Below, in pieces: positions 9,789-61,492 of a stretch of 64,000 bases of DNA (within the stretch, counting starts at the first letter, position 1; each line of letters begins with the position of its first letter). The stretch spans positions 1,024 to 65,023 of the forward strand of contig CAZEID010000006.1 of NCBI GenBank assembly GCA_964512075.1, in the 5' to 3' direction. The position numbers and the translations under genes are program-made. Under the pieces are notes generated by a model. The model was not told the origin of the DNA. It saw only the letters and a list, made by a program, of their open reading frames with translations, and ran no database searches. The stretch comes from an uncultured Candidatus Saccharibacteria bacterium (GTDB lineage: Bacteria; Patescibacteriota; WWE3; 9FT-COMBO-53-11).

Positions 9789-9865
9789 GGGCGAATAGCT
9801 CAGCCGGTTAGAGCGCTGTCCTGATAAGACAGAGGTCCGTGGTTCGAATCCACGTTCGCCCACCA
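9789..9865 (+). tRNA. tRNA-Ile (anticodon GAT)
   Basis: 77-nt cloverleaf. Acceptor GGGCGAA/TTCGCCC, anticodon loop CTGATAA, T-loop TTCGAAT, encoded CCA. Confidence 0.85.
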
Positions 9866-10028: not shown

Positions 10029-10130
10029 TAGCGTATCTTCCCTCATCTCCTTTTGGCCGGTTATGCCAAAAGGCCTTATCTTCCGCCAAAGAAAGGCGGA
10101 AGAACGGAAGCTACGAAGTAACTCCTTAGA

Positions 10131-11690
<1,560 letters not shown>

Positions 11691-11716
11691 ATAAACGCGA
11701 AGCGTTTATAGCTTGT

Positions 11717-14151: not shown

Positions 14152-15108
14152 TTAGGAAACGGAAGGTTGCCGGCGTAAAAACTGGTAAACGCCTGTGGCC
14201 GCTCGAGCGCCGTCGGCCGCCGCGGTCACAATTTGCCGAAAGGGAATTGCCCCGGGAAGGCGAGCTAAGTCACCCGCTGCGAAAACCCCCGGAACGCTGG
14301 ATTGCATATTCGGATCAACCGTAACGTAACCGTTCGCATCTAGCTCCACCCCCAAGGAATCGGCGATGGCACTGGCCGGCACCAGGCCAATCTCAATAAA
14401 GATCCCTTGCACCTCGAGGGTATCGCTCCCCCGGTAGGGAGAAGAAAGTTTGACTCCGGAAACCGCTTCTTGGCCGATAATCCCCTCCACAGTGGTGTTC
14501 AAAATCTCTTCCACGTTCCCGAGAGAACGCATCTTGGCCAGTTCGTGGGGGGCCGCCCGGTACTGATCACTGCGGACAATGATGAAAACCTTTTCCGCAA
14601 AAGCGGCCAGATGGATCGCCGCCGTGACCGCCGAGTCTCCCCCGCCCACCACCGCCACGGTTTTATCCTTAAAGAACGGGGCGTCGCAGACGGCGCAGTA
14701 GGAGACGCCGCGTCCCACCAGCTCTTTCTCCCCTGGAACTTCCAGCTGGCGGTGGTGGGCCCCCAAGGCCAAAATCACGGTCCGGGTTCGGAACTCTTCA
14801 CCCCGATCGGTTTTTAGCGCAAAAACCCCCTCCTCCCGGCGCAACTCTTCCACGCGGCTAGGGAGAATCTGGACCCCGTAGGACTCCACGTGCTTTCTGA
14901 AGGCGGTGGCCAACTCCGGGCCCGAAACCGAAGGAAAACCGGGGTAATTCTCCACCGCGGAAGCATCCAAAAATTGTCCCCCTGGAACGATCCCGAAAAT
15001 TAGGTGGTTTAACTTATACCGGGAGAGATAGATCGAAGCCGCCATCCCGGCGGCGCCGGCTCCCACTACGATGCAATCGTAAACTATTCCTTTGGCGGAC
15101 TCCTTCAT
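14152..15108 (-). CDS. trxB: thioredoxin reductase
   Basis: FAD-binding motif GAGAAG, redox-active CAVC, second dinucleotide motif VVGGGDSA. Confidence 0.85.
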   Translation of the reverse strand: MKESAKGIVYDCIVVGAGAAGMAASIYLSRYKLNHLIFGIVPGGQFLDASAVENYPGFPSVSGPELATAFRKHVESYGVQILPSRVEELRREEGVFALKTDRGEEFRTRTVILALGAHHRQLEVPGEKELVGRGVSYCAVCDAPFFKDKTVAVVGGGDSAVTAAIHLAAFAEKVFIIVRSDQYRAAPHELAKMRSLGNVEEILNTTVEGIIGQEAVSGVKLSSPYRGSDTLEVQGIFIEIGLVPASAIADSLGVELDANGYVTVDPNMQSSVPGVFAAGDLARLPGAIPFRQIVTAAADGARAATGVYQFLRRQPSVS

Positions 15109-15179: not shown

Positions 15180-15872
15180 GTGGAACAACCATTGCTAAAA
15201 GTTTCCCATCTCTCGGTAGGATTCGAACGGCATATCGTTCTGGAGGATATTAGTTTTGAGGTTCAGCCAGGAGAAACCCTCGCCGTCATTGGGCCCAATG
15301 GAGCTGGAAAGACCGTCCTCTTCCGCACCCTTTTGGGACTTCATCCCTATCAGGGGAAGATCGAGTGGCAACCGGGAGTCAAGATTGGTTACGTCCCTCA
15401 GCGGTTCTCATTAACCCCCGACCTTCCTCTCACGGTGAGAGAATTTCTCCAGCTCAAGAGCCGAAACCCTCGAGAAATTGAGGAAGAGTTGACTGGAGTG
15501 GGTTTCGAGAAAGGATTCCTGAAACATCCTCTCGGAGTTCTGTCAACGGGGCAGCAACAAAGGGTTCTGATCGCTTGGGCGCTACTGGGGAAGCCGAACT
15601 TGCTCCTTTTCGACGAGCCCACCTCCGGAGTGGACCCCGCCGGGGATGAAACGATCTACCATTTACTCCACAAACTCCAAACCCAGCGGGGATTGACAAT
15701 CATTCTTATCTCCCACGAGCTCCAGATTGTCTTCCAACACGCCACCAAAGTACTCTGTCTGAACAAGACTACGATGTGCTACGGCCCGCCGCGGCAAGCT
15801 CTCGATACTACCACTCTCGCGAAGTTATTCAGGGTAGAGACGAAACACCACCAAGGAGAGCACCGTGATTGA
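15180..15872 (+). CDS. ABC transporter ATP-binding protein (metal/zinc importer type, ZnuC-like)
   Basis: Walker A GPNGAGKT, signature LSTGQQQR, Walker B LLLFDEP. GTG start as listed. An alternative TTG start 12 nt downstream is possible. Confidence 0.75.
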   Translation: MEQPLLKVSHLSVGFERHIVLEDISFEVQPGETLAVIGPNGAGKTVLFRTLLGLHPYQGKIEWQPGVKIGYVPQRFSLTPDLPLTVREFLQLKSRNPREIEEELTGVGFEKGFLKHPLGVLSTGQQQRVLIAWALLGKPNLLLFDEPTSGVDPAGDETIYHLLHKLQTQRGLTIILISHELQIVFQHATKVLCLNKTTMCYGPPRQALDTTTLAKLFRVETKHHQGEHRD

Positions 15873-16647
15873 AACTAACCCTCTCTTTATTCTCTTGGTC
15901 GGAATCTTTGTGGGCGGGGCGGCCGGATTTATCGGCTCATTCATGGTATTAAAGCGGATGGCCCTCGTAGGGGACGCCTTCACCCACGTCGCTCTTCCCG
16001 GAATGGCGATCGCTCTGCTTCTGCAGCTCGACCCGATGACCGGGGCCTTCGCCGCCCTCACTCTCGCCGCCCTCGGAATCTGGTACCTTGAAGAAACCTC
16101 CCGCATTTACCCCGAGGCACTAGTGGGAATTTTCTTCGCGACAGCGCTCGCGATCGGAATTCTCATCACTCCCGAAACTGAATTACTGGAAACGCTGTTC
16201 GGAAGCATTGAGAAGATCAACCTTCTCGAGGGATTCTTAACCATCATTCTCGCCGTTCTTGTCTCCGCCAGCGGCTACCTAATCTCCAAGAAGTTGGTCC
16301 TGGGAATACTTTCGGAGGAGCTAGCGACCTCGGTGGGCATTTCCCGCAAAAAGATTAACCTAATCTACTTACTCTTAGTCGCGGTCACCGTAACCATTGG
16401 AATTCGCTTTGTGGGAACGCTATTGATGGGAGCCCTGGTAATTATCCCGGCCGCGAGCGCCAAGAACATTAGCACTAGCCTGGGCAGCTACTACCGACTC
16501 TCCATCCTATTTGGGATAGCCTCGGCTGCCGTAGGAGTCGGGATAGCTGCGACTTACGGCATCCTTTCGGGGCCGGCCGTAGTCCTAACCAGCACGTCCC
16601 TTTTCCTAGTCACCTTCGTCATCAAAAAACTGGTAGGAAGGGTTTAA
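15865..16647 (+). CDS. ABC transporter permease (ZnuB/MntB-like, 8-9 TM)
   Basis: Highly hydrophobic, overlaps the ATPase stop, typical metal ABC-3 permease pattern. Confidence 0.7.
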   Translation: MIETNPLFILLVGIFVGGAAGFIGSFMVLKRMALVGDAFTHVALPGMAIALLLQLDPMTGAFAALTLAALGIWYLEETSRIYPEALVGIFFATALAIGILITPETELLETLFGSIEKINLLEGFLTIILAVLVSASGYLISKKLVLGILSEELATSVGISRKKINLIYLLLVAVTVTIGIRFVGTLLMGALVIIPAASAKNISTSLGSYYRLSILFGIASAAVGVGIAATYGILSGPAVVLTSTSLFLVTFVIKKLVGRV

Positions 16648-16662
16648 GTACCGCCGCGGCTA

Positions 16663-18270
16663 TCAGTAGACCTCCTCCTTCTTCTCACGAGCAAAGCTAA
16701 TCCACTCTTCCAAAACCTCCAGTACTACTTGGAAGGGCGCTTCCACCAGTAGCGTAACAATCAAAGCTAGGACGTTGAAACGGGAAAGGCCGGCCGAGAT
16801 AATACTCCCCGCCCGGAGAAAAGGCAAGGCGAAAAAATCAAAAATCACGGTCCCAACCGTTTCTTTTCCTCCAACCATCACCAACTCCCGGGAGGACTCC
16901 CGCACCCGAAGCCCAAAATAGGTCACGATTGAAGTGTAGAAAAGAAAGAGCGCAACTGCGAAGGGAGTAAACCCCAGCCGAGTTAAATACAAGGAGACAA
17001 AACCAAAAATCGCAACAAAAGCGAGGAGATAAATTAGAAATAAAGTCAGGGCAATTCCCCCGCTCCGCCTTTTTACCTCCACCCGATTCTGCTCGGAAAA
17101 AACTCCCCGGCCGGCACCGTTGGGAGAAAAAATTGCCTCTTGAGCCGCGGCAACTACCCGCTCCTCGTTTTCCCGCTCCGGGGTACCTAGAGAAGAGGTC
17201 AGCAAGAAAAGCAGCAAGGGAGGAAAGAAGAAGTTAATCGCCAGGGGAACCAAGTGGACTTTTCCGTAAATAATTCGCTCCGCAGGAAGTTCCAGGGCAA
17301 AAGTTAAAAGAATTTTGGTTAGGAAGATATAAATCAAGGCGCGCGTCGTTGTAGTGGTTAACCGCTCCCGCTCGCGGGCCATTTTCCGCCGGTAGGAATC
17401 AGATACTTCTTGAGCCAATCGGGCACGGTTCTCCAAGATTCCAATCCCTGCGCGCTCCAAGGCATCTCGCAACATCACGAACGGGGAAGTGTAACGGCGT
17501 ACCAATGCCGAGAGCGCTCCGCCCAACCGGTAACTGGAGATCTTACTAATAGCCGCCTTAATCTGGGGCAAATTACTGATCACCTCCCCAATGTGAGCTT
17601 CTCCATTCGTCTTCCAATCCGGGTAGAAGAGTTCGAAGAGATTAAATTCCAACATCGCCCGATCCAGCTTAAGGAGATTGCGGTAAATCGCCACTTGGAG
17701 CTGAATCAAGGCATAGCGCTCATCCAGCTGAGGGTCGGAGAGAATGATGGCCTTCTTTAGATTTGCCAGCATCAAATCAGCCAGGGCATCCTCCCGAGTG
17801 GGCGGGGCAAAGAACTCTTCGATCTCCGAAGAAGCAAGCCGAATCACCAAAGCAAAATCGTCGTCAGTCGGGTTGAGCTCCCGCCCGTGCAAAACTTGGC
17901 GGTACTTCTCCAAAATTCGAACCACGTTCCCAACCACACTCTCCGGGTAGTAATCATTCTTGAGATAGCGGCCCCGGATTAACTCCTTCAGTAGTCCTTC
18001 CGCTACCAGCTGGGAATTAGATTCTGCCCGCAACCGGCGGGAGAGAATTCGCTCGATTGAAGCGCGGCGGAAAAGATGGGGCTCGGTATACTCCATTGCC
18101 CGCCGAACCCTTTCGTAGATGGAAGCTAAGGTAGCCACGGCATGCGGCACCTTAATCCGGGGACCCTCACCGAAAGTGGGTTCCAAATCTTGGGAGTAGG
18201 CCTGCGCTAAAGCTTGGACAGCGATCTGTCGCTCGGAACTGGAAGCGGCCGAATCTTCGCTACTGTGCAT
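16663..18270 (-). CDS. hypothetical protein with a ~300-aa soluble N-terminal domain and a C-terminal multi-TM region
   Basis: 535 aa. Hydrophobic helices after residue ~300. Immediately downstream of, and co-oriented with, the large ATPase. Confidence 0.5.
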   Translation of the reverse strand: MHSSEDSAASSSERQIAVQALAQAYSQDLEPTFGEGPRIKVPHAVATLASIYERVRRAMEYTEPHLFRRASIERILSRRLRAESNSQLVAEGLLKELIRGRYLKNDYYPESVVGNVVRILEKYRQVLHGRELNPTDDDFALVIRLASSEIEEFFAPPTREDALADLMLANLKKAIILSDPQLDERYALIQLQVAIYRNLLKLDRAMLEFNLFELFYPDWKTNGEAHIGEVISNLPQIKAAISKISSYRLGGALSALVRRYTSPFVMLRDALERAGIGILENRARLAQEVSDSYRRKMARERERLTTTTTRALIYIFLTKILLTFALELPAERIIYGKVHLVPLAINFFFPPLLLFLLTSSLGTPERENEERVVAAAQEAIFSPNGAGRGVFSEQNRVEVKRRSGGIALTLFLIYLLAFVAIFGFVSLYLTRLGFTPFAVALFLFYTSIVTYFGLRVRESSRELVMVGGKETVGTVIFDFFALPFLRAGSIISAGLSRFNVLALIVTLLVEAPFQVVLEVLEEWISFAREKKEEVY

Positions 18271-18308
18271 CGCTGTCTATGATAACACGGCCGATCGGAA
18301 GCGGGGAT

Positions 18309-20885
18309 TTACAATCTTGCCCGGAGCCGGATCTCCTCCTCCACCTCCGCGGCGGGGCGAGTGTATTTCATCCGAGACTCCTCTTTAATCTGGGCAGCCC
18401 GGCGGGGATCTCGCGCAATGGCTTGAATCTGGGACCAGTCCGTCCGCATCCTAAACGGGATCGAGGGAACCCCATTAATCAACAAGCGGACGTAGGCTTG
18501 CCCGATGGCCGCATTGAGCAAATCCATCCGAGAGAAATCGGGGGAAACCTCGCTCTCAAGAAACTCGGCATCTTCCGCCCCAACTCGGAAAAGAATCTTG
18601 GTTCCCACGTTCCCAAAAACTGCCCGCTTGATATCTTCAGTCAGCTGACCAATAAACTGATTCGCCACAATTAGATTCAGCCGGTATTTCCGGGCCTCGG
18701 ATAGGATTTGGACGAAGTCGGGCGTCGCAAAGTTTTGGAATTCATCCACGTAAAGGTAGAAGTCCGGCCGCTGCTCTTCGGGTATCTCTACCCGCCCCAT
18801 GGCTGCTGTCAAAATCCGCGGCACTAAAATCAGCCCCAAAAAGTTGGAATTTTCCTCCCCAATCCTCCCTTTGGAGAGGTTCACTAATAGAACCTTTCGC
18901 TGATCCATTACCTCCCGGAAGCTGAAGGAGGATTTCCCCTGGCCGATGATGTTGCGCATCAGCTTTTCCGTCACAAACCGGTCGAACTTGGAGACGAAGT
19001 AGCCCAAGGTTTCGCTTTTGTGAAAGTCGGAAGTTTGAGCAAGCTCGTCAGTCCAATATTTCTTCACAATCGGATCCGTAATTAACGGGACCTTGCTAGC
19101 GGCAAAAACCGGGTCGGTCAGCAGGCGGAAAACTTCCACCAAGGTATTTTCCTTCTCGCTCATCGCTGTGAGCATCACATTCCGCACCGCCCGCTCCAAG
19201 CGGGGGCCCAAAATTCCGGTTCGGTTTGGATCATAAAGCTTGTAAAGGAGAGAAATAAAGGAGTTAATTACGAGATGTTTTCCTTCTTCTGTCTCCGCTT
19301 CCAAGATGTTGAGAGCCGGCGGCCGTTCTAAATCACCGGGATCGAAGTAAATTACATCGGCCTGGCGTTCTTTCGGGATCATTTGGAGAAGATCCTCCAC
19401 CGCGTCGCCATGCGGATCTACGAAACAAAGCCCCTCACCGGCGACGATATCTTGATAAGCCATAAACTTGAGCAACTCGCTTTTACCGGTTCCGGTCTGA
19501 CCGATGATGTAAGTATGCCGCCGGCGATCGTTTCGCTGCAGATAGACCGGTACTTCTATCCCCCGCGAGGACGCTCGACCAAGGTAGAGACCCGCAGTCG
19601 GCAGATCTAAGGGAATCGCCCCGGTTTTGGCCCCCAACCACTTAATGTTCGGCGTTGCTACCCACTTGTTGGGCAGGTGGAAAAGCGTCGCCAGCTCCTC
19701 GCTCGAAAAGACCGTCCAGTGCATAAAGCGCGGAACATGCCGGTAGAGAAAATCCACCATAAAGGACTTTTTAAAGAGGGCTTTCTTAACAGCAAAACCC
19801 GCTAGCTGTGGCGCGGAGAATTGGCTCAAACTGGTCACAATGCTGGAGAGTTGGAGATCGGCCGAAGCTTTCGTCGGCGCGACGGTCACAATCCTGATCA
19901 GCGCATAAAATCCGGGTTTATTGACCTTCCGGGCAATCGCTTCCTCAGTTTCCTTTCCCAGAACAACCCGACTCTCTCCCTCCGGCTTTCTCTCCATTTC
20001 TTTCGCCTTTAAAATGAAGGCCTGGCCTTGGCGCTGCCAGCTGGCGTCAGCCGGAGAGACCACAATTTGGATCACCGCCGCCTCGCCTTGGGCCAGCTTG
20101 GTTAAAGCGGAGGTAATGGTGTTAAGGGAATCGGTCTCTTCGCCCAAATCTACGTACGTCCTAATTGGGTAATACTTTGGTCCAGTTGTTACAAGCTGAT
20201 TAAAAGAAACGTACCCTTCTTTTTGAAAAATGTCATACTCCTGAACTTCCTTAATCTCGGCACTGGGATAAGCCGCGTGCAGCTGTTTCTCCACTAAAGA
20301 ACAAACCTCGCGAGGAGAAACTACCACAAAATGGATATGCTCGTGGTCCGCTATAATTTCGAAACTTAAATTAATCTGGGGGACCCCCAAGGACAGCGGT
20401 CCTCCACCCCGGTGGAGCCCCGCAAGGGAAGTGAAAAATTGCTCGGCGGCACCCGCCCGAATCTCGCTGTCCCGCGGCACCAACACCTCCAAAAAGACTA
20501 AATCGGGTCCGCCTTTCCGAGAAGCAACGGGGCCCGCCAGTTTCTGCCACTGCCGCTTCCACCATTCCCCCAACCAGCGGAAGGCACTCGTAATCGGAAG
20601 CTTCTGAGATTCCTTTACCTCCTGAACAGTTAAGGGTGGGGCAACCAGCCCCGGCTCAATCGGGGAACCGGGAAGAGAAGGCGGAGTTGGCGAGACTGGG
20701 GACGGCGAAGCTGGAAGGGAGGGCGGAGGAACGGAAGAGGAAGGTAAGGCCGCGGGACTCTCAGGAGCGGTTTCGGCCTCCTTGCCTACCTCCGACGGGG
20801 AGGGCTTTTCGGGAGCAGGAAAACCGGGGATTTTTTCGGGAGTACCGGAGATTGGCTCTGTTTCCACACCTCTATCCTGCCACAA
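18309..20885 (-). CDS. FtsK/HerA/VirD4-superfamily P-loop ATPase (type IV coupling-protein-like) with a Pro/Ser-rich N-terminal region
   Basis: 858 aa. N-terminal ~90 aa is low-complexity PAPEKPSPSE...PPSLPGSP. Walker A IIGQTGTGKSE, Walker B LYVDEFQNF, then LNLIVANQ. No TM helices are evident. Confidence 0.6.
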   Translation of the reverse strand: MWQDRGVETEPISGTPEKIPGFPAPEKPSPSEVGKEAETAPESPAALPSSSVPPPSLPASPSPVSPTPPSLPGSPIEPGLVAPPLTVQEVKESQKLPITSAFRWLGEWWKRQWQKLAGPVASRKGGPDLVFLEVLVPRDSEIRAGAAEQFFTSLAGLHRGGGPLSLGVPQINLSFEIIADHEHIHFVVVSPREVCSLVEKQLHAAYPSAEIKEVQEYDIFQKEGYVSFNQLVTTGPKYYPIRTYVDLGEETDSLNTITSALTKLAQGEAAVIQIVVSPADASWQRQGQAFILKAKEMERKPEGESRVVLGKETEEAIARKVNKPGFYALIRIVTVAPTKASADLQLSSIVTSLSQFSAPQLAGFAVKKALFKKSFMVDFLYRHVPRFMHWTVFSSEELATLFHLPNKWVATPNIKWLGAKTGAIPLDLPTAGLYLGRASSRGIEVPVYLQRNDRRRHTYIIGQTGTGKSELLKFMAYQDIVAGEGLCFVDPHGDAVEDLLQMIPKERQADVIYFDPGDLERPPALNILEAETEEGKHLVINSFISLLYKLYDPNRTGILGPRLERAVRNVMLTAMSEKENTLVEVFRLLTDPVFAASKVPLITDPIVKKYWTDELAQTSDFHKSETLGYFVSKFDRFVTEKLMRNIIGQGKSSFSFREVMDQRKVLLVNLSKGRIGEENSNFLGLILVPRILTAAMGRVEIPEEQRPDFYLYVDEFQNFATPDFVQILSEARKYRLNLIVANQFIGQLTEDIKRAVFGNVGTKILFRVGAEDAEFLESEVSPDFSRMDLLNAAIGQAYVRLLINGVPSIPFRMRTDWSQIQAIARDPRRAAQIKEESRMKYTRPAAEVEEEIRLRARL

Positions 20886-20900
20886 AATTGACCCGGGAAG

Positions 20901-21710
20901 CTACTTGACTAAACCTCGAACCCAATCTAGGAACTTGCTAAGCCCGCTGCGGGCCGCGGCCTGCTCCTCTTCAATCACTTGCTGAAAGGATTCAAATGGC
21001 AGGGCACCTTGGACAACTTTGGCAGTAATGGTTCCGGAGGAGCGCGTTTGGCCAATAAAGAAGGTGGGCGTCCCAATCCCTTGAGAAAAAACACTTGAGT
21101 AATTCTGGGCGATTTCGGTAATGTAGGCCAAATCCGCAGCCACCTCGTCTCTGAATTCCTCGGTGGAGAGGCAGTGGTTAAACGCGGCCGCATCCAACCC
21201 GATCTTGGTGGCGGCGGCGGCGTAATCCGCCTCCTTCATCCCCTCCCCGTTGGAGGCGGTTCGGGCAAAGATTTCGTCGTGGTAAGAGAAATATCCCTCA
21301 TCTCCCTTTTGATCGCGGGCGCAATTGGCCGCCAAGGCCTCTTTGGTCGCGACTGGATCATGGAAAGACAAGGGAAGATCGCGGTAGACAAACCTAACCT
21401 TGCCGGTGTCGATGTACTGTTCCTTGATCTTGGGAAGAGTTTCCGCAAAGAAGCTCTTGCAGAACGGGCACTCGTAGTCAGAAAACTCAATTATCGTAAC
21501 TGGGGCATTAGGATCACCGAGACCGGGGTCGTCGTCCACCGAAATTTCCACCTCTCCCGCCACCGCGCCCGTGGGGAAACTGTCGGAAATTCTCCCCAAG
21601 CCACCGGTGGTAAGAATCGCGGCGGCCACTATCATCCCACTCAACAAGATCGCGGAAGGCAAAAAAAGGGGCCGGTAACGGGTGATCCAGTCGGAAGGCG
21701 CTTTAGCCAT
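20901..21710 (-). CDS. DsbA-like thiol:disulfide oxidoreductase (membrane-anchored, thioredoxin fold)
   Basis: N-terminal TM helix. Active site SDYECPFCKSF. Confidence 0.7.
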   Translation of the reverse strand: MAKAPSDWITRYRPLFLPSAILLSGMIVAAAILTTGGLGRISDSFPTGAVAGEVEISVDDDPGLGDPNAPVTIIEFSDYECPFCKSFFAETLPKIKEQYIDTGKVRFVYRDLPLSFHDPVATKEALAANCARDQKGDEGYFSYHDEIFARTASNGEGMKEADYAAAATKIGLDAAAFNHCLSTEEFRDEVAADLAYITEIAQNYSSVFSQGIGTPTFFIGQTRSSGTITAKVVQGALPFESFQQVIEEEQAAARSGLSKFLDWVRGLVK

Positions 21711-23876: not shown

Positions 23877-24896
23877 GTGGCAATAAAAATGGTCCCCACA
23901 ACTAAAGACCCAGAACTGGAGAGGCTAGGCAGGGCTTATGAAGCTTACTTCGACGTGGCTGATCCAAGGAAGATCGGAGAGATTCGCAGAGATATTTTCT
24001 TCTTCCGCAAACCGTTTTTGGAAAGGGAAAAAGCCTACCTCCAGCATAAAAAAACAATCGGGGAGCTAAAGCCGCTCTACAAAGACCTGGTCAAGGCAAG
24101 AAATAAATACGCCCAATCGAAAGGCCCCTATCGAAACTTCCTCCATTTTGCCCTCAATGATGATGGTGTACCAGAAAAAAGTTTTGAAAAATTCCTTGAA
24201 CAAATCGATTCACTGATAAATAGGATCAACAAAAACCTCCCCAAACCAAAAAACAGCGGACAGTTCTATTCTCCCCTCAACATGCCAGACTTTATCGACG
24301 AGATTAGTAGCAAAAAATACTCGCTACCAGAATATGTCATAAGAAGATTGGGCGAATACTCTCCCGAAATTGGGCAAATGCTCCCAAGGATAAGATTTGA
24401 GGATGCGGATAAAAATCACGGTTTTAACGAGGCTCTTTTCCGGCCCGTTACGGGAACTGTCGTAGTTCGAACTTGGCCAAGCTCCGATCTTCAACACGCA
24501 ATCTCCCTAGCTCACGAAGTAGGACACGCTGTAGCATACCTCCGATTAATAAAGGAAGGGATAGATCCCAAAGACAAACCAAAGTACTGGCACGAAAAGC
24601 AGGCTATCAGAATGGAGTTAACTTTTATTGGAACACTCCCCCAGGATCTGCGAAACGCTGCTATCGGAAACATCCTTTGGCAGTTTACTATTGCTTTGTT
24701 TGAAGTGGAAACATACGCCAAGCCCAATCTAAATTTCGATCGAGTGTTTGCCCAGTCTTTTAACCGCTGTTATAAAGAAGCTCAACAAAAAGAAAATCCA
24801 TTTTATGTAGTAATGGAACCGCTTCTCCGCCGCCCCTGCTCCGCCGTTACGCAAGGAATAGTTCACACCGGGGAACTTTCTCAAGTACTCAATTAA
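23877..24896 (+). CDS. putative zinc metallopeptidase-like protein (HEXXH motif)
   Basis: 339 aa. Contains LAHEVGHAVAY (HEXXH) and a downstream Glu-containing segment. Family is not assignable by eye. Confidence 0.45.
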   Translation: MAIKMVPTTKDPELERLGRAYEAYFDVADPRKIGEIRRDIFFFRKPFLEREKAYLQHKKTIGELKPLYKDLVKARNKYAQSKGPYRNFLHFALNDDGVPEKSFEKFLEQIDSLINRINKNLPKPKNSGQFYSPLNMPDFIDEISSKKYSLPEYVIRRLGEYSPEIGQMLPRIRFEDADKNHGFNEALFRPVTGTVVVRTWPSSDLQHAISLAHEVGHAVAYLRLIKEGIDPKDKPKYWHEKQAIRMELTFIGTLPQDLRNAAIGNILWQFTIALFEVETYAKPNLNFDRVFAQSFNRCYKEAQQKENPFYVVMEPLLRRPCSAVTQGIVHTGELSQVLN

Positions 24897-24940: not shown

Positions 24941-26281
24941 TTATTCCTCAGCTTCCGGCGTGGAGCGGATCTTGAACCCGACAAACCCTTGCCCGAAATC
25001 CTCGATCATTAAGGTCTCGAGAATCTTCTCCCCCTCTTCGGGAGAAAACCACTCGACAAAGAACCGGTTCCAGAGCGCTTCCCGAACGTGATAGGTGTAT
25101 TGTCCCCCTTCGCTGAAAGATCCGGAAGGGCTGGCCGCGAGGGAGAAGACATTGTCCTCGAAGTTGAAAGAGACCAATTCCCCAGAGAAAAAGCCACAAA
25201 GGTGGGTTTTGCCCCTCCAGAAGGACAGTCCCCCCTTCGCTAAAGCTCCGGAGGGCAGGCCCGGAGTGTTGTCGGCGAGGGCGGCAAGATTGGCGGAAGC
25301 CCGGGCCCAATGCAGCGCTTCCGGAGAAATGTGGGGGATCTGGAGGCGCGGGTCATTCGGATTCTCCTTCGCCAAATAGCGCTGCATAATTACCCAGGAA
25401 ACAATATTCTCCAGCTCCGGCGCCGATTCCCGCACGTCTCCCCGCAGGGCGGAAACAAACTTGCCGGAAAAGGTGCCCGGATCTTCCGCGATCATCCGAA
25501 AATATTTCGCGTAAAACATCACTTCGTTGAGGTAGTGGAACATCATCGAAAACATCCGGGTGAGCGCCCCTTCGGTGTATTCCACCGGAATGATGATCAC
25601 AACCCCCAGCTCCTTGAGGTGGGTAGCATTGTGGAACTTTTTCTTGGTAAAATTCCGGGCTTCCGGTCCCCACTTCTTGGGATCGAGCACCCGCATCACA
25701 ATCGGCCGCTCCTCGAAGTCGTCGGGGGTGAGCTGGGAGAACGGGGCGAAGAAGACTTCATTTTGCCACTTCCGGTCCTCTAAAAACCGGAGGGCCGAAA
25801 AAACCTCGAAAAGGTCCTCCTTCGCCAACAGCTCTTCGGCACTACTGTATTTAAGTTGGGCGAGGATGTTTTTCGGCGGGTTCTGGCGGAAAAGTTCCTT
25901 CGCTTTCTCTTCCTTCAGGAAAAAACCCTTCGCGGGCTGGAACCCCGTTTTTAGCGGGGTTGCGCCGGAGGCAGCAACAATCTCCGCCGCCCGAGCAAAG
26001 AGCTTCTTGATGTAGTTGTGGTCCAACATTGCCGGCTCGCCCAACGCCTTCTTCGCCTCCTCCTCCAAGAGAGCCACCCGCTCCGCCAAGGCCGCCAAGA
26101 TCTCCTTTCGAGGAGAACTTCCCGAAAGCCCCAGCTCGTCGAGGACCCGCGATCTCTCTTCCCTTATTTTCTCTACCAACTGCTCGGGAACCTCTCTCTT
26201 TCCCGTAAACTCCGCCATTTCGTCGGTTAATTCTTCAAGTTTCTTTTTAGTTGTACCAAGGAGTTGCGCCAGTTCTTCCAT
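24941..26281 (-). CDS. hypothetical protein (446 aa), convergent with the HEXXH gene
   Basis: Long ORF with coding-like composition and a coiled-coil-like N-terminus. No recognisable catalytic motif. Confidence 0.5.
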   Translation of the reverse strand: MEELAQLLGTTKKKLEELTDEMAEFTGKREVPEQLVEKIREERSRVLDELGLSGSSPRKEILAALAERVALLEEEAKKALGEPAMLDHNYIKKLFARAAEIVAASGATPLKTGFQPAKGFFLKEEKAKELFRQNPPKNILAQLKYSSAEELLAKEDLFEVFSALRFLEDRKWQNEVFFAPFSQLTPDDFEERPIVMRVLDPKKWGPEARNFTKKKFHNATHLKELGVVIIIPVEYTEGALTRMFSMMFHYLNEVMFYAKYFRMIAEDPGTFSGKFVSALRGDVRESAPELENIVSWVIMQRYLAKENPNDPRLQIPHISPEALHWARASANLAALADNTPGLPSGALAKGGLSFWRGKTHLCGFFSGELVSFNFEDNVFSLAASPSGSFSEGGQYTYHVREALWNRFFVEWFSPEEGEKILETLMIEDFGQGFVGFKIRSTPEAEE

Positions 26282-42531: not shown

Positions 42532-44319
42532 TTAGGGCTTCCGTTGCTGTTCGAAAAGCCGCCGAATCTCTGCCACCGTAGTGGCCTGCTCCGGGGTCTT
42601 GTCATCCCGAAAAGCCATCAAGCGGGGGAAGCGCAGGGCTAGCCCCCCCGCAGTGTGTAATGGTGATCGGGTGATCTCGTCCGCCCGAATCGCCACCACG
42701 ATCTGGGGCTCTGCCCAAACATCGGGAGTGTGCTCCTTGGCTACCGCGACATTCTTAGGCTTGGTCCCAACCTTTAGGGCATCCACTCGGCGCTTCAGCT
42801 CCCGCCACTCCTCATCCGTCAACCCCGAGCCGACCCGGGAAATCGTCTTGAAAGTATCGGTCTGATCATCGTAAAGCCCCACCAAAAAACCCCCAATTCC
42901 GAACTGGGTCCGCTTGCCGCGTCCCCGGTAGTAGCCAAGAATTACCCCGTCAATCGTATCTTCCAACTGGCCTCTCTCTACCCGCTTAAGCTTAACCCAG
43001 TTGAAGTTCCGCACTCCGGCTTGGTAAACCCCGTCCAAGCGCTTGGCCATAATCCCCTCTAACCCATGCTCCACCTGTTCCAGAAAGAACTTCTCTAATT
43101 CCCCGGCATCAGTGAAAACTCTTTCCTCCGCAACCAAAATCGTATCGGGCTCCCGCACCAGCTTCTCCAGCGCCCGGCGGCGAGCTTCGTAAGGTTCACG
43201 CGTTAAGTCCCGACCGTTTAGGTAAAGCAGATCGAAGGCAAAGACCTTCAGCGGCAGATCCGTCAACTTCTCCCTAATCCCGTATTTCCGCTTGCGCTTA
43301 GCAGTTTCCTGAAATGGTTCAAACTCTTCGGTCTCGGGGTTATAGGCGATTGCTTCCCCCTCAAAGATTGCCGATTCGGCGGACAGCTGTTGGGTCGCCC
43401 CTACGATCTCGGGGAACATTGAAGTGGTATCCTCCAAATTGCGGGAAAAAATCTTCACCCAAGGACCGGAGATTTTTTCACCCCCAATTAGGTCGAGCTG
43501 CTCATAATCCTCCTCCTTAAACCGGCGGGACTTATCCAGGTGGACCTGAACCCGAAAACCGTCATACTTCGGCTCGGCCGCTAATTTCCCGCCCATTTTC
43601 TCCAGAATCTCAACCGGAGTCGGCAGGCGCTCGGCTGAGGCCATTCGTACCGGCACCCCCACCTCCACCTGAATCCCTTGCAGCCCCCGCACCCCTTTCG
43701 TTCTCACCAGCCGGGCGATCCGACCAATATCGGCGGAAATGTTGTAGGCCCGTTCCAACACCGGACGGAGGGACTTGTCCCCGGCTTCCACCACCGAAAG
43801 AGCGTCGAGAATCGTCTTATCCGAAAACCCCAAGCGCAAGCGTGCCACAGGGATTCGAGCGACATATTTTGCAGAGAGCGAATCCAGGGATCGGAAGAGC
43901 TCGGCCATTCCCCGAACTTTCCGCTCCTGCGAACCCGGGCCGGAGGTCTCGGCGATCTCCCGAAGCTTCCTGTAAACCTCCGAGGTTGAAGGAGAAACCT
44001 CGGAGGTTTTGGCTCTGCTTTTTGCCAGCTCCTCCGCTGCATCTCCCAGATCCCCCTTTTCCTGGACGATTTTCTCGACTTCTGCGCTCGGAGCCCCGTA
44101 GGCCTCCGCCATCACCCGAATTAGCGTTTTGCTGGCAAGATTGAACTCAACACCTTCGTAAAGCGGAGCCAACTGGCCCAGGACGAGGTAGCAGATCTTA
44201 TCGATTTCCTCCGGAGAAGACTCTTTCAGGAGCTCCGCGAGAACGGCGGTAATCTCCAACCGCTTGGAAGTAGCTTCAATCCGCGAAAAGTACTGCGCCA
44301 GCTTAGAAAAAAGCATCAC
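42532..44319 (-). CDS. ATP-dependent DNA ligase
   Basis: Motif I KYDGFRVQVH with downstream adenylation/OB motifs. 595 aa. Confidence 0.8.
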   Translation of the reverse strand: MMLFSKLAQYFSRIEATSKRLEITAVLAELLKESSPEEIDKICYLVLGQLAPLYEGVEFNLASKTLIRVMAEAYGAPSAEVEKIVQEKGDLGDAAEELAKSRAKTSEVSPSTSEVYRKLREIAETSGPGSQERKVRGMAELFRSLDSLSAKYVARIPVARLRLGFSDKTILDALSVVEAGDKSLRPVLERAYNISADIGRIARLVRTKGVRGLQGIQVEVGVPVRMASAERLPTPVEILEKMGGKLAAEPKYDGFRVQVHLDKSRRFKEEDYEQLDLIGGEKISGPWVKIFSRNLEDTTSMFPEIVGATQQLSAESAIFEGEAIAYNPETEEFEPFQETAKRKRKYGIREKLTDLPLKVFAFDLLYLNGRDLTREPYEARRRALEKLVREPDTILVAEERVFTDAGELEKFFLEQVEHGLEGIMAKRLDGVYQAGVRNFNWVKLKRVERGQLEDTIDGVILGYYRGRGKRTQFGIGGFLVGLYDDQTDTFKTISRVGSGLTDEEWRELKRRVDALKVGTKPKNVAVAKEHTPDVWAEPQIVVAIRADEITRSPLHTAGGLALRFPRLMAFRDDKTPEQATTVAEIRRLFEQQRKP

Positions 44320-51857: not shown

Positions 51858-51932
51858 TGGTGGCGACGGGAGGATTCGAACCTCCGACCTAAGCTTTATG
51901 AGGGCTCCGCTCTACCCCTGAGCTACGTCGCC
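51858..51932 (-). tRNA. tRNA-Met (anticodon CAT), elongator-like with a G1:C72 pair
   Basis: 75-nt cloverleaf. Acceptor GGCGACG/CGTCGCC, anticodon loop CTCATAA, T-loop TTCGAAT, CCA encoded. Confidence 0.8.
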
Positions 51933-51990
51933 GACAGCCGGGTACCAGATCTACGAAGGCCGATCCTTCCGAAGCTTTGGCGAAGGAGAG

Positions 51991-52065
51991 TGGTTGCGGG
52001 CCCTGGAATTGAACCAGGTCCTCGTGGTTATGGGCCACGCGTGGTAACCGTTCCACCAGCCCGCT
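51991..52065 (-). tRNA. tRNA with anticodon CAT and a mismatched 1:72 position (candidate initiator tRNA; Ile2/lysidine type not excluded)
   Basis: 75-nt cloverleaf. Acceptor AGCGGGC/GCCCGCA with A1xA72, anticodon stem CGTGG/CCACG, loop CCCATAA, T-loop TTCAATT, CCA encoded. Confidence 0.7.
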
Positions 52066-52727: not shown

Positions 52728-53603
52728 ATGATTCCGCTGCGAGAAGCGCATCAAAAATTCATCGAGCATCTAAGAGAGAAAAATCGTTCCCAGTCCACAG
52801 TTCTAGCCTACGGCAAAGATATTGATCAGCTCATAGAGTTCCTTGAGGAGCTCGAAAAAGCGCACATCGCCGAGATCACTAAAGACGACCTGGAAGCCTT
52901 TCTGGCCAAGCTACTCAAAAATGGCTACACCCCCAAGTCGGTTTCCCGGAAAACGAACGCCGTCAAAACCTTCTTTCGCTTCCTAAAAGTCAACGAGTAC
53001 ATCACCGACGATCCCGCTCTCCTCGTCGCACATCCCAAATTTGAGAGCAAGCCTCCCCGAATCCTTTCAGAGACCGAGTACCGGGCCCTCCGAGATGCGG
53101 TCCAAAACGATACGCGGACCTACGCTATCGTGGAAGTTCTTCTCCAAACTGGTATCCGAATTGGAGAACTATCTCGACTGAAGATGAATGATATCAAGTT
53201 CGGCAGCGGCACTCGCGCTGGGGAAATTCGCATCGCTCCTTTTAACCGCCATCCCGAAAGAAGCGTACCCCTCAACCCCCGCGCCCAAAAAGCTCTCAAG
53301 GCCTACTTAGAGGAACGGCCCGAAGTAAAGAGTGAGAACGTCTTCGTCACCCGGACCGGCAAGCCCCTTCTGGTCCGGAACATCCGGGCTACCATCAAGC
53401 GCTACTTAGAATTGGTTGGGATTGAGGACGCCACCGTCAACGACCTCCGCCACACCTTCATCGCTCACCACCTCAAGCGAGGGGCTTCGCTAGTGTTAGT
53501 CAGCAAAATTGCTGGTCACCGCCGCCTGTCGACGACTGAGAAGTACTTAGAACACATTGATATTACTGCTCCCCAGGAGAAGATGGAGATAGCGGAGCTC
53601 TAA
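52728..53603 (+). CDS. tyrosine-type site-specific recombinase (XerC/XerD-like)
   Basis: N-terminal SAM-like domain. Catalytic R...HxxR...Y (RHTFIAHHLKRG...TEKYLEH). Confidence 0.8.
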   Translation: MIPLREAHQKFIEHLREKNRSQSTVLAYGKDIDQLIEFLEELEKAHIAEITKDDLEAFLAKLLKNGYTPKSVSRKTNAVKTFFRFLKVNEYITDDPALLVAHPKFESKPPRILSETEYRALRDAVQNDTRTYAIVEVLLQTGIRIGELSRLKMNDIKFGSGTRAGEIRIAPFNRHPERSVPLNPRAQKALKAYLEERPEVKSENVFVTRTGKPLLVRNIRATIKRYLELVGIEDATVNDLRHTFIAHHLKRGASLVLVSKIAGHRRLSTTEKYLEHIDITAPQEKMEIAEL

Positions 53604-53951: not shown

Positions 53952-54027
53952 TGGTGGGCACCCCTGGATTCGAACCAGGAACCCCCAAGGTATAAGCTTG
54001 GTGCTCTAACCATTAAGCTAGGTGCCC
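53952..54027 (-). tRNA. tRNA-Ile (anticodon TAT)
   Basis: 76-nt cloverleaf. Acceptor GGGCACC/GGTGCCC, anticodon stem CCAAG/CTTGG with loop CTTATAC (UAU), T-loop TTCGAAT, CCA encoded. Confidence 0.75.
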
Positions 54028-59610: not shown

Positions 59611-59800
59611 TTCCTGCTGAACCTTAATAACCGAATCGGTTTGACCTCTAAGGTGGGAAGAGTTGGGCGCGGATTTCGCCGTACTCAACTCAACCCCTGA
59701 TTAGGGGAACCAAAACCAAAAAAAGAAGGGAGGATGGAAGAGGGTATTACTAGGCTTGCCCAGCCCGCGCCGTAACCGAGCATCTACCAAGGAGAAAGCT

Positions 59801-61423
59801 GTGAAAACGAAAGGACTGCGTTTCTTTCTGGTTTTGGGTGTGCTGGCGGCCCTGTTCGCCTTCGGCGCTACGAGCGCCGGAGCCACGGGGGGAGGCGGCT
59901 ACGACCTGAATGTGGACGTCGACGCCGAGTGTGAGACCTATACGGTCTCAGCCAACCCCGCGAACTGGGACGAAGACAACACCGGACAGAGCCGGATCCA
60001 GTGGCGGCCAGTTCCGGGAACGCTGACTGGAACCGGCACGTTCGCTTTCGGCGAATTCGATTCCTCCGCAAGTTGGGAGGTTTCGGTCCAATATCGCAAA
60101 TACACCAGCTCGAACTGGGGCTTCACCTGGACCGCTACCAGCGTCTACCACACCGAGACGGATAGCGGCAGTGTGAGCCGAAAAGGGCACTGCGACGTGG
60201 TGATTTGCCACGCTACCGGTAGCCAGAGCAATCCCTACATCCAGATCACGGTGGATGACCGCGCCGTGGATGGAGTTGGGAGCTCGGACCACAACCGGGA
60301 CGGGCACCAGAACGGTGAGGACATCATCCCGCCGGGCTTCTGGGATGCGGACGGCCGGAACTGGACGGCGGAAGGTATCGCCATCTGGGAGAACGGCTGC
60401 GAAATCCCCGAGCCTCCGCCGCCTCCGGTCGAGGGATGCACTGATCCGTTGGCGCTCAACTACAACCCTGAGGCCACGGTTGACGATGGCAGTTGCGAGT
60501 ACCCACCTCCGGTGCAGGTCTGCGAGGATCCCGCCGCGCTGAATTATGGCGAGGAGGGCGAGTGCCAATACCCGCCGCCAACCTACACCATCGAGGACCT
60601 TTCAGACTGTGATGGCTTCGCCTTCTTGTTTTACCAAGATGGCGAGCCGATCGGCGGTGGGAGCGGTCCCTGGAACGGGCGGACACTCCTGTACGTCGTG
60701 CTCCCGCCGGACAGTCTGGAGTTCTTCGCCACTGCAGCACCGCCGGACGATCATACGGTCGTGGGACAGGTGGTCAGGCCTGACTACTGCGAACCGGGCG
60801 AACCGCCGTGCCCGCAGTGCGTTTGCCCAACCTGCGGCCCACCCGTCCAGGAAACGATGGGTGAATCGATGGGCATCGCCTGGTTTTCGGACGTCCCCTG
60901 CGACGCCGGGACCTGTCCGCTCTTCGCGGGCCAGGACCACAACCCCTGGGTGAAGCTGTGGACAATGATCCCAAGCTTCTTCACCCACGAAGGTGTGACT
61001 GCCCCGCTAACGGCCGTCACGACTGCCAACGGGGAGGTCTGCTACGAAGCGTTCTTCCGGGATGGAGACTCCATTGGGGACTTCATCCTCTGGGGTCCGA
61101 ACGGGGAGGGCGATCGCATCCGGGGTCACTTCCCGGCCAGCGATCCGCAACCGCACAAGTACAGCGCCTGCTCGATCTTCCCGAGCTGGTGTGATACCCG
61201 CCTCGGGGAAGACGGCCAAGGCTACGCGCTCTGGCTGCCCGGACACACCGTGTGGGACTGGGCCCAGTTTCTGCTCCAGAACGGGTTCTTCCCGGGCGAG
61301 GAGAATCGGGCCACGCTGGCGCTGGGGTGGGCAATGGCCCTGCGCGAGAACGGCAACGCCGCCCTGCTCACTTGGAACGGCGACCTGAGGAACCTTCCGC
61401 CGTTTCCGCTTCCGCCCCGGTAA
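59801..61423 (+). CDS. secreted cysteine-rich protein with two tandem ~25-aa Cys-containing repeats
   Basis: GTG start with RBS AAGGAG 6 nt upstream. Signal peptide MKTKGLRFFLVLGVLAALFAFGATSAGA. Repeats CTDPLALNYNPEATVDDGSCEYPPP and CEDPAALNYGEEGECQYPPP (60437-60580). About 20 Cys in total. GC about 62-68% against a ~53% background. Confidence 0.6.
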   Translation: MKTKGLRFFLVLGVLAALFAFGATSAGATGGGGYDLNVDVDAECETYTVSANPANWDEDNTGQSRIQWRPVPGTLTGTGTFAFGEFDSSASWEVSVQYRKYTSSNWGFTWTATSVYHTETDSGSVSRKGHCDVVICHATGSQSNPYIQITVDDRAVDGVGSSDHNRDGHQNGEDIIPPGFWDADGRNWTAEGIAIWENGCEIPEPPPPPVEGCTDPLALNYNPEATVDDGSCEYPPPVQVCEDPAALNYGEEGECQYPPPTYTIEDLSDCDGFAFLFYQDGEPIGGGSGPWNGRTLLYVVLPPDSLEFFATAAPPDDHTVVGQVVRPDYCEPGEPPCPQCVCPTCGPPVQETMGESMGIAWFSDVPCDAGTCPLFAGQDHNPWVKLWTMIPSFFTHEGVTAPLTAVTTANGEVCYEAFFRDGDSIGDFILWGPNGEGDRIRGHFPASDPQPHKYSACSIFPSWCDTRLGEDGQGYALWLPGHTVWDWAQFLLQNGFFPGEENRATLALGWAMALRENGNAALLTWNGDLRNLPPFPLPPR

Positions 61424-61492
61424 GTAAAGGAGCTTGAGACCCAAGGTGCTTTTGAGCAATCAAAAGCACCTTTTTCATTTTCGGCGGAAATT

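What the first reader, a model, noticed from the sequence alone, without database searches (positions are those of the whole stretch)
16663..20885. Two-gene module: Pro-rich FtsK/HerA/VirD4-superfamily ATPase plus a large multi-TM partner
The 858-aa protein has a ~90-residue Pro/Ser/Glu-rich low-complexity N-terminus, a ~350-aa domain I cannot assign, and a C-terminal P-loop NTPase. Its motifs (GQTGTGKS; hhhhDEFQNF; LIVANQ) fit the DNA-translocase/coupling-protein clade (VirD4/TraD, FtsK, HerA). Unlike canonical T4CPs it has no TM anchor. The next co-oriented gene, 38 bp downstream, encodes a 535-aa protein whose last ~230 aa are multi-TM, which could supply the membrane component in trans. 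No other conjugation, pilus or competence genes are nearby. This could be a minimal DNA-uptake or secretion motor, or an uncharacterised defence ATPase. It is the best candidate in the window for an undescribed system.
Basis: partly seen in the sequence, partly recalled or inferred. Interest (0 to 1): 0.55.

Follow-up and report, generated by a model that had tools for sequence, protein, structure and literature searches.

The report
Orphan coupling-type ATPase, fused adaptor, unrelated neighbour
The two genes are real, but they are separate, widely conserved genes of unknown function in ultra-small Patescibacteria that sit side by side only in this narrow lineage; the ATPase's usual companion is a small protein that has been fused onto its front end here, replacing its membrane anchor.

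Summary

The proposed two-gene module is not supported. The 535-aa membrane protein belongs to a separate family found in at least 277 species genomes. An ATPase lies next to it in only 3 of the 80 loci examined. A relative (L012) keeps the same gene order with no ATPase. Fused, TM-less ATPases also occur with no partner nearby.

Most family members have one N-terminal TM helix. In 28 related loci a small low-complexity gene ending in an amphipathic RWLAEWC helix lies directly upstream. In this lineage that gene is fused to the ATPase and the TM helix is gone: of 120 homologues, 77 have a TM and no fusion, 35 have the fusion and no TM, and none has both.

The function is unknown. A 2025 survey found VirD4-like homologues in 96% of Patescibacteria genomes, mostly far from virB4; this family is probably among them. 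Interest is moderate.

The parts
18309..20885 (-). DUF8128 / VirD4-like ATPase gene (858 aa; the likely true start is the GTG at 20867, giving 852 aa)
20601..20885 (-). Pro/Ser/Glu-rich low-complexity N-terminus (aa 1-95)
   Evidence: Composition is P 24, S 14, E 11 of 95. It aligns with the disordered part of the free-standing small upstream proteins of other lineages.
20514..20645 (-). Fused 'W-helix' module (aa 81-124: PPLTVQEVKESQKLPITSAFRWLGEWWKRQWQKL), homologous to the C-terminus of a small protein that other Patescibacteria encode as a separate gene just upstream of the ATPase
   Evidence: An HMM built from 13 upstream small ORFs hits this segment with E 4e-6 among 23,628 six-frame ORFs. 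Every other hit is an upstream ORF or the N-terminus of the TM-less L004 ATPase. See alignment A4. The helix is amphipathic: hydrophobic moment 0.71 against a shuffle 95th percentile of 0.63.
19611..20510 (-). DUF8128 domain (aa ~126-425), an alpha/beta domain of unknown function
   Evidence: Precomputed PF26449 on all homologues. AF2 confidence is mostly above 85. No PDB sequence match to a DUF8128-only profile. 4,769 representative proteins match, always near the N-terminus.
18312..19598 (-). C-terminal RecA-like P-loop NTPase (aa ~430-858) with a helical insertion (aa ~533-661). Walker A is at 19479-19502, Walker B/DEFQNF at 18729-18746, VANQ at 18657-18668.
16663..18270 (-). Neighbouring 535-aa polytopic membrane protein. 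It is a member of a separate Patescibacteria-wide family of unknown function and is not a conserved partner of the ATPase.
20901..21710 (-). TM-anchored DsbA-like thioredoxin; a synteny marker (ancestral neighbour of the 535-aa gene)
   Evidence: Pfam Thioredoxin_4 and DSBA. TM at aa 13-39. In L012 it directly precedes the partner homologue with no ATPase between them.
14152..15108 (-). Thioredoxin-reductase-like gene; a synteny marker on the other side of the partner (separated here by an inserted ABC transporter pair at 15180-16647 on the + strand)
   Evidence: Pfam Pyr_redox_2. In L012 and L010 it follows the partner homologue.

Best explanation
These are two unrelated, widely conserved Patescibacteria genes that were placed side by side recently in one WWE3 sub-lineage. 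They are not a two-component machine.

The 858-aa protein belongs to a large Patescibacteria family. Its usual build is one N-terminal TM helix, a cytoplasmic DUF8128 alpha/beta domain, and a VirD4/VirB4-type P-loop ATPase with a helical insertion. In many other lineages a small gene sits immediately upstream. It encodes a disordered, Pro/Glu/Gln-rich protein that ends in a conserved amphipathic helix (RWLAEWCxRxxK). In the lineage of this window that small gene has been fused in frame to the ATPase, and the TM helix has been deleted at the junction.

The following is inferred, not shown. By analogy with TrwB, VirD4 and DotL, the protein forms a hexameric ring at the cytoplasmic face of the membrane. 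It is held or recruited there by the amphipathic helix, which takes over the role of the lost TM helix. The ring uses ATP to engage and push a macromolecular substrate (protein or DNA) towards an envelope channel encoded elsewhere. That channel could be the Patescibacteria type IV secretion system or an unknown one. The disordered region would act as an adaptor or recruitment arm.

The 535-aa neighbour is an independent housekeeping-context membrane protein of unknown function.
For: Identity of the ATPase:
- Pfam cut-offs are passed.
- The best PDB sequence relatives are DotL and TrwB.
- Walker A, Walker B and the sensor motif are invariant in 58 homologues.
- The AF2 model shows a helical insertion between Walker A and Walker B.

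The family is broad and sits in core-genome contexts:
- 895 hits, of which the 120 listed are at least 50% identical.
- 4,769 DUF8128 representatives.
- The neighbours are ribosomal, NusA/NusG and DnaK-operon genes.

No linkage with the 535-aa gene:
- 3 of 80 partner loci have an adjacent ATPase.
- 4 of 62 ATPase loci have the partner downstream.
- The L012 and L011 gene order lacks the ATPase.
- L175 has four genes between the two.
- The partner's commonest neighbours are ThrRS, DnaE, Tgt and MiaA.

Fusion of the small upstream protein:
- The small-ORF HMM hits 28 ORFs, all immediately 5' of and co-oriented with an ATPase homologue (TM-bearing wherever its N-terminus was examined).
- Its only other hits are the N-termini of the window ATPase and the L004 ATPase.
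- Of 120 homologues, 77 have a TM and no fusion, 35 have the fusion and no TM, 8 have neither, and none has both.
- Alignment A4 has an invariant Pro and two invariant Trp.
- The helix is amphipathic.
Against: - No experiment exists for any member of the family.
- Hexamer formation, membrane association through the amphipathic helix, the substrate and the channel are all inferred by analogy.
- The helix has only modest AF2 confidence (pLDDT 55-72) and no confident docking.
- The Pfam T4CP scores are only just above their cut-offs, and the NCBIfam TraD models are far below theirs (51 against 366).
- A t4cp homologue was reported as non-essential in Southlakia epibionticum, although the T4SS is essential there. 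VirD4-like homologues are also more prevalent than VirB4 (2,918 against 2,417 of 3,035 genomes; PMC12102498). Both points argue against a simple T4SS-coupling role. I could not confirm that the homologues counted in that paper are of the DUF8128 type.
- Within the closest WWE3 relatives (L007-L009) the pair is adjacent, so a lineage-specific functional link cannot be excluded.
Confidence: 0.6

Rival explanations
1. The TM-less ATPase and the downstream 535-aa polytopic protein form a minimal two-gene DNA-uptake or secretion motor, and the membrane protein anchors the ATPase in trans.
For: The genes are 38 bp apart and co-oriented. The ATPase has no TM helix. The adjacency is kept in the three closest species-level relatives, L007-L009. 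From my own knowledge there is a precedent: pIP501 TraJ is a TM-less T4CP that a small membrane protein recruits to the membrane.
Against: The adjacency is absent from 77 of 80 partner loci and from 58 of 62 ATPase loci. L012 has the same synteny without the ATPase. L175 separates the two genes by four others. The fused TM-less ATPases in L004, L173 and L174 have no partner within 5-8 kb. The partner family is common in lineages whose ATPases carry their own TM helix. Long co-oriented, tightly packed gene runs are the norm in this window.
Confidence: 0.06
2. A genuine type IV coupling protein that serves, in trans, the Patescibacteria VirB4-based T4SS encoded elsewhere in the genome. It would recruit effector proteins or DNA through the disordered arm.
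For: Its sequence and fold affinities are with T4CPs. T4CP genes are often encoded far from virB4, and VirB4 is found in 80% of Patescibacteria genomes (PMC12102498). In DotL and TraD, disordered tails serve as adaptor platforms (my own knowledge).
Against: Only 148 of 5,713 T4CP homologues lie near virB4. A t4cp homologue is non-essential in a species where the T4SS is essential. T4CP homologues occur in more genomes than VirB4 does. Relaxases are rare, at 109 in 3,035 genomes. No T4SS gene is among the conserved neighbours in 88 loci. Canonical T4CPs have no DUF8128 domain.
Confidence: 0.25
3. An FtsK-like chromosome-handling translocase that works with the Xer recombinase in dimer resolution or segregation at division.
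For: An Xer-type tyrosine recombinase is the commonest neighbour. It lies downstream and convergent in 26 of about 60 loci with enough flank, and the ATPases of those loci are as divergent as 41% identity. A DivIC-like gene follows in some of them. The build of TM, linker and translocase recalls FtsK.
Confidence: 0.06
4. An uncharacterised anti-phage defence ATPase, HerA- or MADS-like.
Against: No other MADS, Dnd, Sir2 or nuclease gene is nearby. The gene sits among housekeeping genes in every locus examined. It is very highly conserved, with more than 100 invariant columns at about 50% identity, and probably near-universal. Both are the opposite of a patchy defence island. The window shows no compositional anomaly.
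Confidence: 0.03

Closest known systems
Type IV coupling proteins (TrwB of R388, VirD4, TraD, DotL/IcmO, Cag-beta)
   Different: A 300-aa DUF8128 domain lies between the anchor and the ATPase. The family has one TM helix and this protein has none, where T4CPs typically have two. No T4SS, relaxase or oriT context was found. The gene sits in the core chromosome. NCBIfam TraD models score far below their cut-offs. A conserved small disordered partner is either fused or encoded upstream.
VirB4 ATPases (C-terminal domain, e.g. Thermoanaerobacter VirB4, PDB 4ag5; TrwK)
VirD4-like 'T4CP homologues' of Patescibacteria (Quinonero-Coronel et al. 2025, PMC12102498)
   Same: These are orphan VirD4-like ATPases found in 2,918 of 3,035 Patescibacteria genomes. 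[quoted passage not shown] The present protein very probably falls in this set.
   Different: As far as I read it, that survey does not describe the DUF8128 domain, the small upstream gene, or the TM-less fused form. I could not verify protein by protein that their hits are DUF8128 proteins.
pIP501 TraJ with TraI (a Gram-positive T4CP that lacks TM helices and is recruited by a small membrane protein); from my own knowledge, not tested here
   Same: A TM-less coupling-type ATPase whose membrane localisation depends on a separate small protein.
   Different: Here the small protein has no TM helix, only an amphipathic one, and it is fused to the ATPase. No conjugation genes are present.
FtsK/SpoIIIE
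   Same: The same ASCE superfamily. Both have a membrane anchor, a low-complexity linker and a translocase. Xer recombinase is often a neighbour.

Membership tests
Type IV coupling protein (VirD4/TrwB/TraD) | P-loop NTPase with conserved Walker A, Walker B and sensor motifs | tested here: met
   GQTGTGKS at 462-469, DEFQNF at 714-719 and VANQ at 740-743; invariant across 58 homologues.
Type IV coupling protein (VirD4/TrwB/TraD) | Scores above the curated cut-offs of the T4CP profile models | tested here: inconclusive
   Pfam TrwB_AAD_bind scores 26.3 against 20.5 and TraG-D_C 28.0 against 22, both passing narrowly. T4SS-DNA_transf scores 13.6 against 20.1 and fails. NCBIfam SXT_TraD scores 51 against 366, conj_TOL_TraD 33.9 against 647, and CD1115 31 against 250; all fail.
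Type IV coupling protein (VirD4/TrwB/TraD) | All-alpha domain inserted in the nucleotide-binding domain | tested here: met
Type IV coupling protein (VirD4/TrwB/TraD) | N-terminal transmembrane anchor | tested here: not met
   No TM helix in the window protein; the maximum KD19 value is 1.42. 77 of 120 homologues have a single N-terminal TM helix.
Type IV coupling protein (VirD4/TrwB/TraD) | Genetic association with a T4SS (VirB4, VirB6, VirB8) and/or a relaxase | tested here: not met
   None was found among the 20 window ORFs scanned, among the conserved neighbour families of 88 loci, or in the annotated contexts. Whether the rest of the genome has one cannot be tested from the window.
Type IV coupling protein (VirD4/TrwB/TraD) | Hexameric ring, substrate recruitment and requirement for transfer | not testable with these tools
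   This needs biochemistry and genetics.
Pfam DUF8128 (PF26449) family | DUF8128 domain N-terminal to the ATPase | tested here: met
   PF26449 is precomputed on the identical database protein P0001 and on all 120 listed homologues, and is named DUF8128. The model is absent from the local Pfam copy. A profile of aa 126-425 recovers 4,769 representatives.
FtsK/SpoIIIE | FtsK_SpoIIIE motor domain with alpha and gamma domains | tested here: not met
HerA | HerA profile match, with a HAS-barrel and a partner nuclease | tested here: not met
   DUF87 passes only marginally (24.9 against 23.2). HerA_C scores 14 against 22. NCBIfam helicase_HerA scores 12 against 970. No NurA, Sir2 or other nuclease is nearby.
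MADS defence system (mad8) | mad8-like ATPase encoded together with the other mad genes | tested here: not met
   The mad8 profile hit (66 bits) covers the ATPase domain only. The neighbours are a DsbA-like gene, a dehydrogenase, an ABC transporter and a thioredoxin-reductase-like gene.
   3 of 80 partner loci. 4 of 62 ATPase loci. L012 and L011. L175. L004, L173 and L174.

The most novel reading that the evidence does not exclude
The DUF8128 ATPase and its small W-helix protein, which are separate in most Patescibacteria and fused here, form a phylum-specific and near-universal translocation motor that works independently of the T4SS. It could, for example, move host-derived or self macromolecules across the envelope of these episymbionts. 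On this reading the fusion and TM loss in WWE3 show that the small protein, and not the TM helix, is what positions the motor.
Probability: 0.3. Interest if true: 0.7.

Novelty: new variant of a known kind. Interest (0 to 1): 0.38.

Why it matters
Patescibacteria are a very large and mostly uncultured part of bacterial diversity. Their most conserved lineage-specific proteins are candidates for what makes their episymbiotic lifestyle work.

This ATPase family appears to be among the most widespread of those proteins, yet it has no known function and is only loosely connected to the T4SS. Knowing its constant companion is useful for three reasons:
- A small disordered protein with an amphipathic Trp-rich helix, fused to the ATPase in one lineage, gives a concrete two-component unit to express, localise and delete in genetically tractable Saccharibacteria, if they carry the same family.
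- It warns against reading function from adjacency in these compact, co-oriented genomes.
- It marks the 535-aa membrane protein as a separate Patescibacteria-wide protein with no recognisable fold relative.

Tried and rejected
- **Two-gene module.** Rejected by the co-occurrence statistics and the L012 synteny.
- **FtsK replacement.** Rejected, because L110 has a canonical FtsK as well as the ATPase.
- **Defence system.** The PADLOC mad8 hit covers the ATPase domain only, and the context is housekeeping.
- **Phage or mobile origin.** phrog_5156 matches strongly, at 224 bits. However, the five IMG/VR relatives are 411-432-aa ATPase-only proteins without DUF8128. The window shows no compositional island.
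- **Literature.** No paper mentions DUF8128.
- **Organism name.** The exact-sequence cluster look-up returned no names. The WWE3 placement rests on the names of the closest homologues.
- **Promoter and terminator scan.** It was uninformative: 6 promoter-like sites against 4.1 expected, and 11 terminator-like sites against 12.3 expected.


Full report
**1. What is in the sequence**

The two ORFs are exactly as reported. One is at 18309-20885 on the minus strand (858 aa, TTG start). The other is at 16663-18270 on the minus strand (535 aa). They are 38 bp apart. The identical database protein, P0001, has 852 aa and starts at a GTG six codons downstream.

The window is ordinary core chromosome of a Patescibacteria (CPR) bacterium. 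It carries a 16S rRNA gene at 10130-11694(-) and six tRNA genes. It also carries MnmA, a thioredoxin-reductase-like gene, a metal ABC transporter, RadA, ribosomal protein S1, FtsH, an ATP-dependent DNA ligase and two P-type ATPases. GC content is even, at 0.49-0.60. The closest named homologues come from candidate division WWE3.

Among the 20 ORFs I scanned there is no T4SS, pilus, competence, relaxase or defence gene. There is no paralogue of the ATPase in the window.

**2. The ATPase**

Pfam gives TraG-D_C (28.0 bits, cut-off 22), TrwB_AAD_bind (26.3, cut-off 20.5) and DUF87 (24.9, cut-off 23.2). T4SS-DNA_transf, HerA_C and FtsK do not pass. The NCBIfam TraD and VirD4 models hit only far below their cut-offs.

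A profile of 58 homologues finds DotL/IcmO (2.4e-7) and TrwB (1.5e-6) as the best solved relatives.

Every match runs through the C-terminal ~330-395 residues. Walker A (aa 462-469), DEFQNF (714-719) and VANQ (740-743) are invariant in the family. The model shows a helical insertion between Walker A and Walker B, as in T4CPs.

The closest branch is VirD4/VirB4. A DUF8128-only profile finds no solved relative. It does recover 4,769 cluster representatives in the 1.84-billion-protein library. In all of those listed the domain starts 1-115 residues from the N-terminus (the earliest starts are in short, probably truncated sequences), and the full-length proteins are about 780-1,100 aa.

**3. The neighbour**

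The 535-aa protein has no hit reaching a curated cut-off in Pfam (one sub-threshold DOG1 match, E 0.083) and none in NCBIfam, PADLOC or PHROGs. Its AF2 model (pLDDT 79) has an all-helical cytoplasmic half of about 300 aa, followed by about six membrane helices and a very conserved C-terminal helix, EEWISFAREKKEEVY.

The family is broad. One C-terminal peptide pattern alone recovers relatives in 277 species-representative genomes. These span Parcubacteria-type lineages (Portnoy-, Kerfeld-, Uhr-, Nealson-, Wildermuth- and Komeilibacteria) and Microgenomates-type lineages.

**4. Are the two genes a module? No.**

I searched the 80 best partner loci, each with up to 10 kb of flank on both sides, with tblastn. 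An ATPase homologue lies next to the partner only in L007, L008 and L009, which are the closest WWE3 relatives (partner at least 74% identical). One further locus, L021, has a 37%-identical ATPase 3.2 kb away.

The partner's recurrent neighbours are housekeeping genes. Threonyl-tRNA synthetase lies directly upstream in 22 of 81 loci. DnaE, Tgt, MiaA and a UvrD-like helicase also recur.

The converse test gives the same answer. Of 88 loci with an ATPase homologue, 62 have at least 1.8 kb downstream, and only 4 of those have the partner there (L007-L009 and L021). L116 has a 25%-identical partner homologue upstream.

The most telling case is L012, whose partner is 59% identical. Its gene order is 2-hydroxyacid dehydrogenase, DsbA-like, partner, thioredoxin-reductase-like. 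That is the window's order without the ATPase and without the ABC transporter pair. L011 also lacks an ATPase anywhere in its 21.5 kb. In L175, whose ATPase is 72% identical, four genes separate the two.

The adjacency is therefore a recent local rearrangement in one WWE3 sub-lineage.

**5. What the Pro-rich N-terminus is**

A hydropathy scan shows that most family members have one strong N-terminal TM helix directly before DUF8128. Examples are P0039, P0054, P0072, P0081, P0084, P0089 and P0108. The window protein and its WWE3-like relatives instead have 90-180 hydrophilic, low-complexity residues.

In many lineages with the TM helix, a small gene of about 100-250 aa lies immediately upstream. 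It is co-oriented, often overlaps the ATPase start, and encodes a Pro/Glu/Gln/Ser-rich protein.

I built an HMM from 13 of these small ORFs and searched all 23,628 six-frame ORFs of 167 loci plus the window. It gave 30 hits. Twenty-eight are ORFs directly 5' of an ATPase. The other two are the N-termini of the TM-less ATPases of the window (E 4e-6, aa 81-124) and of L004 (E 5.5e-8). There were no hits anywhere else.

The shared segment is PL(S/T)xxE(I/V)xxGLxxx(V/I)xxS(I/F)RWLAEWCxRxxK. In the window it reads PPLTVQEVKESQKLPITSAFRWLGEWWKRQWQKL. One Pro and two Trp are invariant.

Among the 120 listed homologues:
- 77 have a TM helix and no fused module
- 35 lack a TM helix and carry the fused module
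- 8 have neither (some of these are probably truncated or too divergent to detect)
- none has both

The helix is amphipathic, with a hydrophobic moment of 0.71 against a shuffle 95th percentile of 0.63. The small-protein family is unannotated and has no Pfam domain.

The simplest reading is a 'Rosetta-stone' fusion. The companion that recurs with this ATPase is the small W-helix protein. In the WWE3-like clade it was fused to the ATPase, and the TM helix was lost at the junction. The fused, TM-less forms in L004, L173 and L174 have no 535-aa gene nearby. The loss of the TM helix therefore does not depend on that neighbour.

**6. How it most likely works**

Shown:
- the protein is a conserved, presumably active VirD4/VirB4-type ATPase
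- it carries a family-specific N-terminal domain
- it is normally anchored in the membrane
- in many lineages a small disordered protein with an amphipathic helix is encoded immediately upstream
- it lies in a core-genome context

Inferred by analogy with TrwB and DotL:
- it forms a hexameric ring at the inner face of the membrane
- here the amphipathic helix positions the ring, in place of the TM helix
- the ring uses ATP to hand a protein or DNA substrate to an envelope channel encoded elsewhere

Whether that channel is the Patescibacteria T4SS is open. A 2025 survey found VirD4-like homologues in 2,918 of 3,035 Patescibacteria genomes, against 2,417 with VirB4. Only 148 of 5,713 homologues lay near virB4. 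A t4cp homologue was non-essential in a species where the T4SS is essential. [quoted passage not shown] Wang et al. 2023 saw no recognisable coupling protein in the T4SS locus. I could not confirm protein by protein that those hits are DUF8128 proteins.

**7. Alternatives considered**

FtsK-like role. An Xer-type recombinase is the commonest neighbour of the ATPase. It lies downstream and convergent in 26 loci, whose ATPases are as divergent as 41% identity. Against this, L110 encodes a complete canonical FtsK beside a DUF8128 ATPase. The fold is also closer to VirD4 and VirB4 than to FtsK. The window's Xer homologue is 32 kb away, at 52728-53603.

Mobile or phage origin. phrog_5156 matches at 224 bits. 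The five IMG/VR relatives, however, are ATPase-only proteins of 411-432 aa.

**8. Verdict**

The protein is a new variant, fused and TM-less, of a catalogued but uncharacterised Patescibacteria-wide T4CP-like family. The neighbour is a separate Patescibacteria-wide membrane protein with no detectable relative of known fold.

Interest is moderate. Nothing here is categorically new. The small-protein companion and its fusion do give a concrete handle on one of the most widespread proteins of unknown function in the phylum.

Noticed in passing
L088-L167 and others; window 52728-53603(+): An Xer-type tyrosine recombinase (~288 aa) is the commonest neighbour of DUF8128 ATPases. It lies downstream and convergent in 26 loci whose ATPases are only 41-92% identical to each other, and a DivIC/FtsB-like gene often follows. 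In the window the Xer homologue (51% identical to the example) is 32 kb from the ATPase.
   Followed up: partly
L110 214-2490(+) and 5633-7864(+): A complete canonical FtsK (4TM, alpha, motor and gamma Pfam domains) lies 3 kb upstream of a DUF8128 ATPase in one metagenomic Patescibacteria contig. The two translocases therefore co-exist in one genome.
   Followed up: yes
window 53952-54027(-): A tRNA-Ile with anticodon TAT (UAU), found by ARAGORN and Rfam. This is uncommon in bacteria, which usually read AUA with a lysidine-modified CAU tRNA. Two tRNA-Met(CAT)-type genes lie nearby at 51858-52065.
   Followed up: no
window 10130-11694(-) and 9789-9865(+): The 16S rRNA gene has no 23S or 5S gene anywhere in the 64-kb window, and the adjacent tRNA-Ile(GAT) is on the opposite strand. 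The rRNA genes appear to be unlinked.
   Followed up: no
window 16663-18270(-); L007-L086: The 535-aa membrane protein family has polar or charged invariant residues in or near its membrane helices (K319, E327, N346, N368, N499, E521) and an almost invariant C-terminal F(A)REKKEE(V) motif. Threonyl-tRNA synthetase lies directly upstream in 22 of 81 loci. A TM-anchored DsbA-like gene recurs within 1-5 kb in WWE3 and several Kerfeldbacteria-type loci (L015, L023, L035, L041, L047).
   Followed up: partly
window 18309-20885(-); L168-L172: PHROG phrog_5156 (unknown function, 824-position profile) matches aa 312-852 at 224 bits. IMG/VR viral contigs encode 411-432-aa ATPase-only relatives (28-42% identical) without DUF8128.
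   Followed up: partly
window 23877-24896(+), 24941-26281(-), 59756-61423(+): Three sizeable ORFs (339, 446 and 555 aa) have no Pfam hit at E<=0.001. The last lies in the only stretch of raised GC (0.60 at 60001-62000).
   Followed up: no
window 42532-44319(-): An ATP-dependent (archaeal/eukaryotic-type) DNA ligase with all three Pfam domains (DNA_ligase_A_N, _M and _C) is encoded in this bacterial window.
   Followed up: no
ATPase loci L004-L167: In 7 of the 88 ATPase loci, a second ORF that clusters with the ATPase family lies just downstream on the same strand. These could be tandem paralogues or genes split by frameshifts; I did not resolve which.
   Followed up: no
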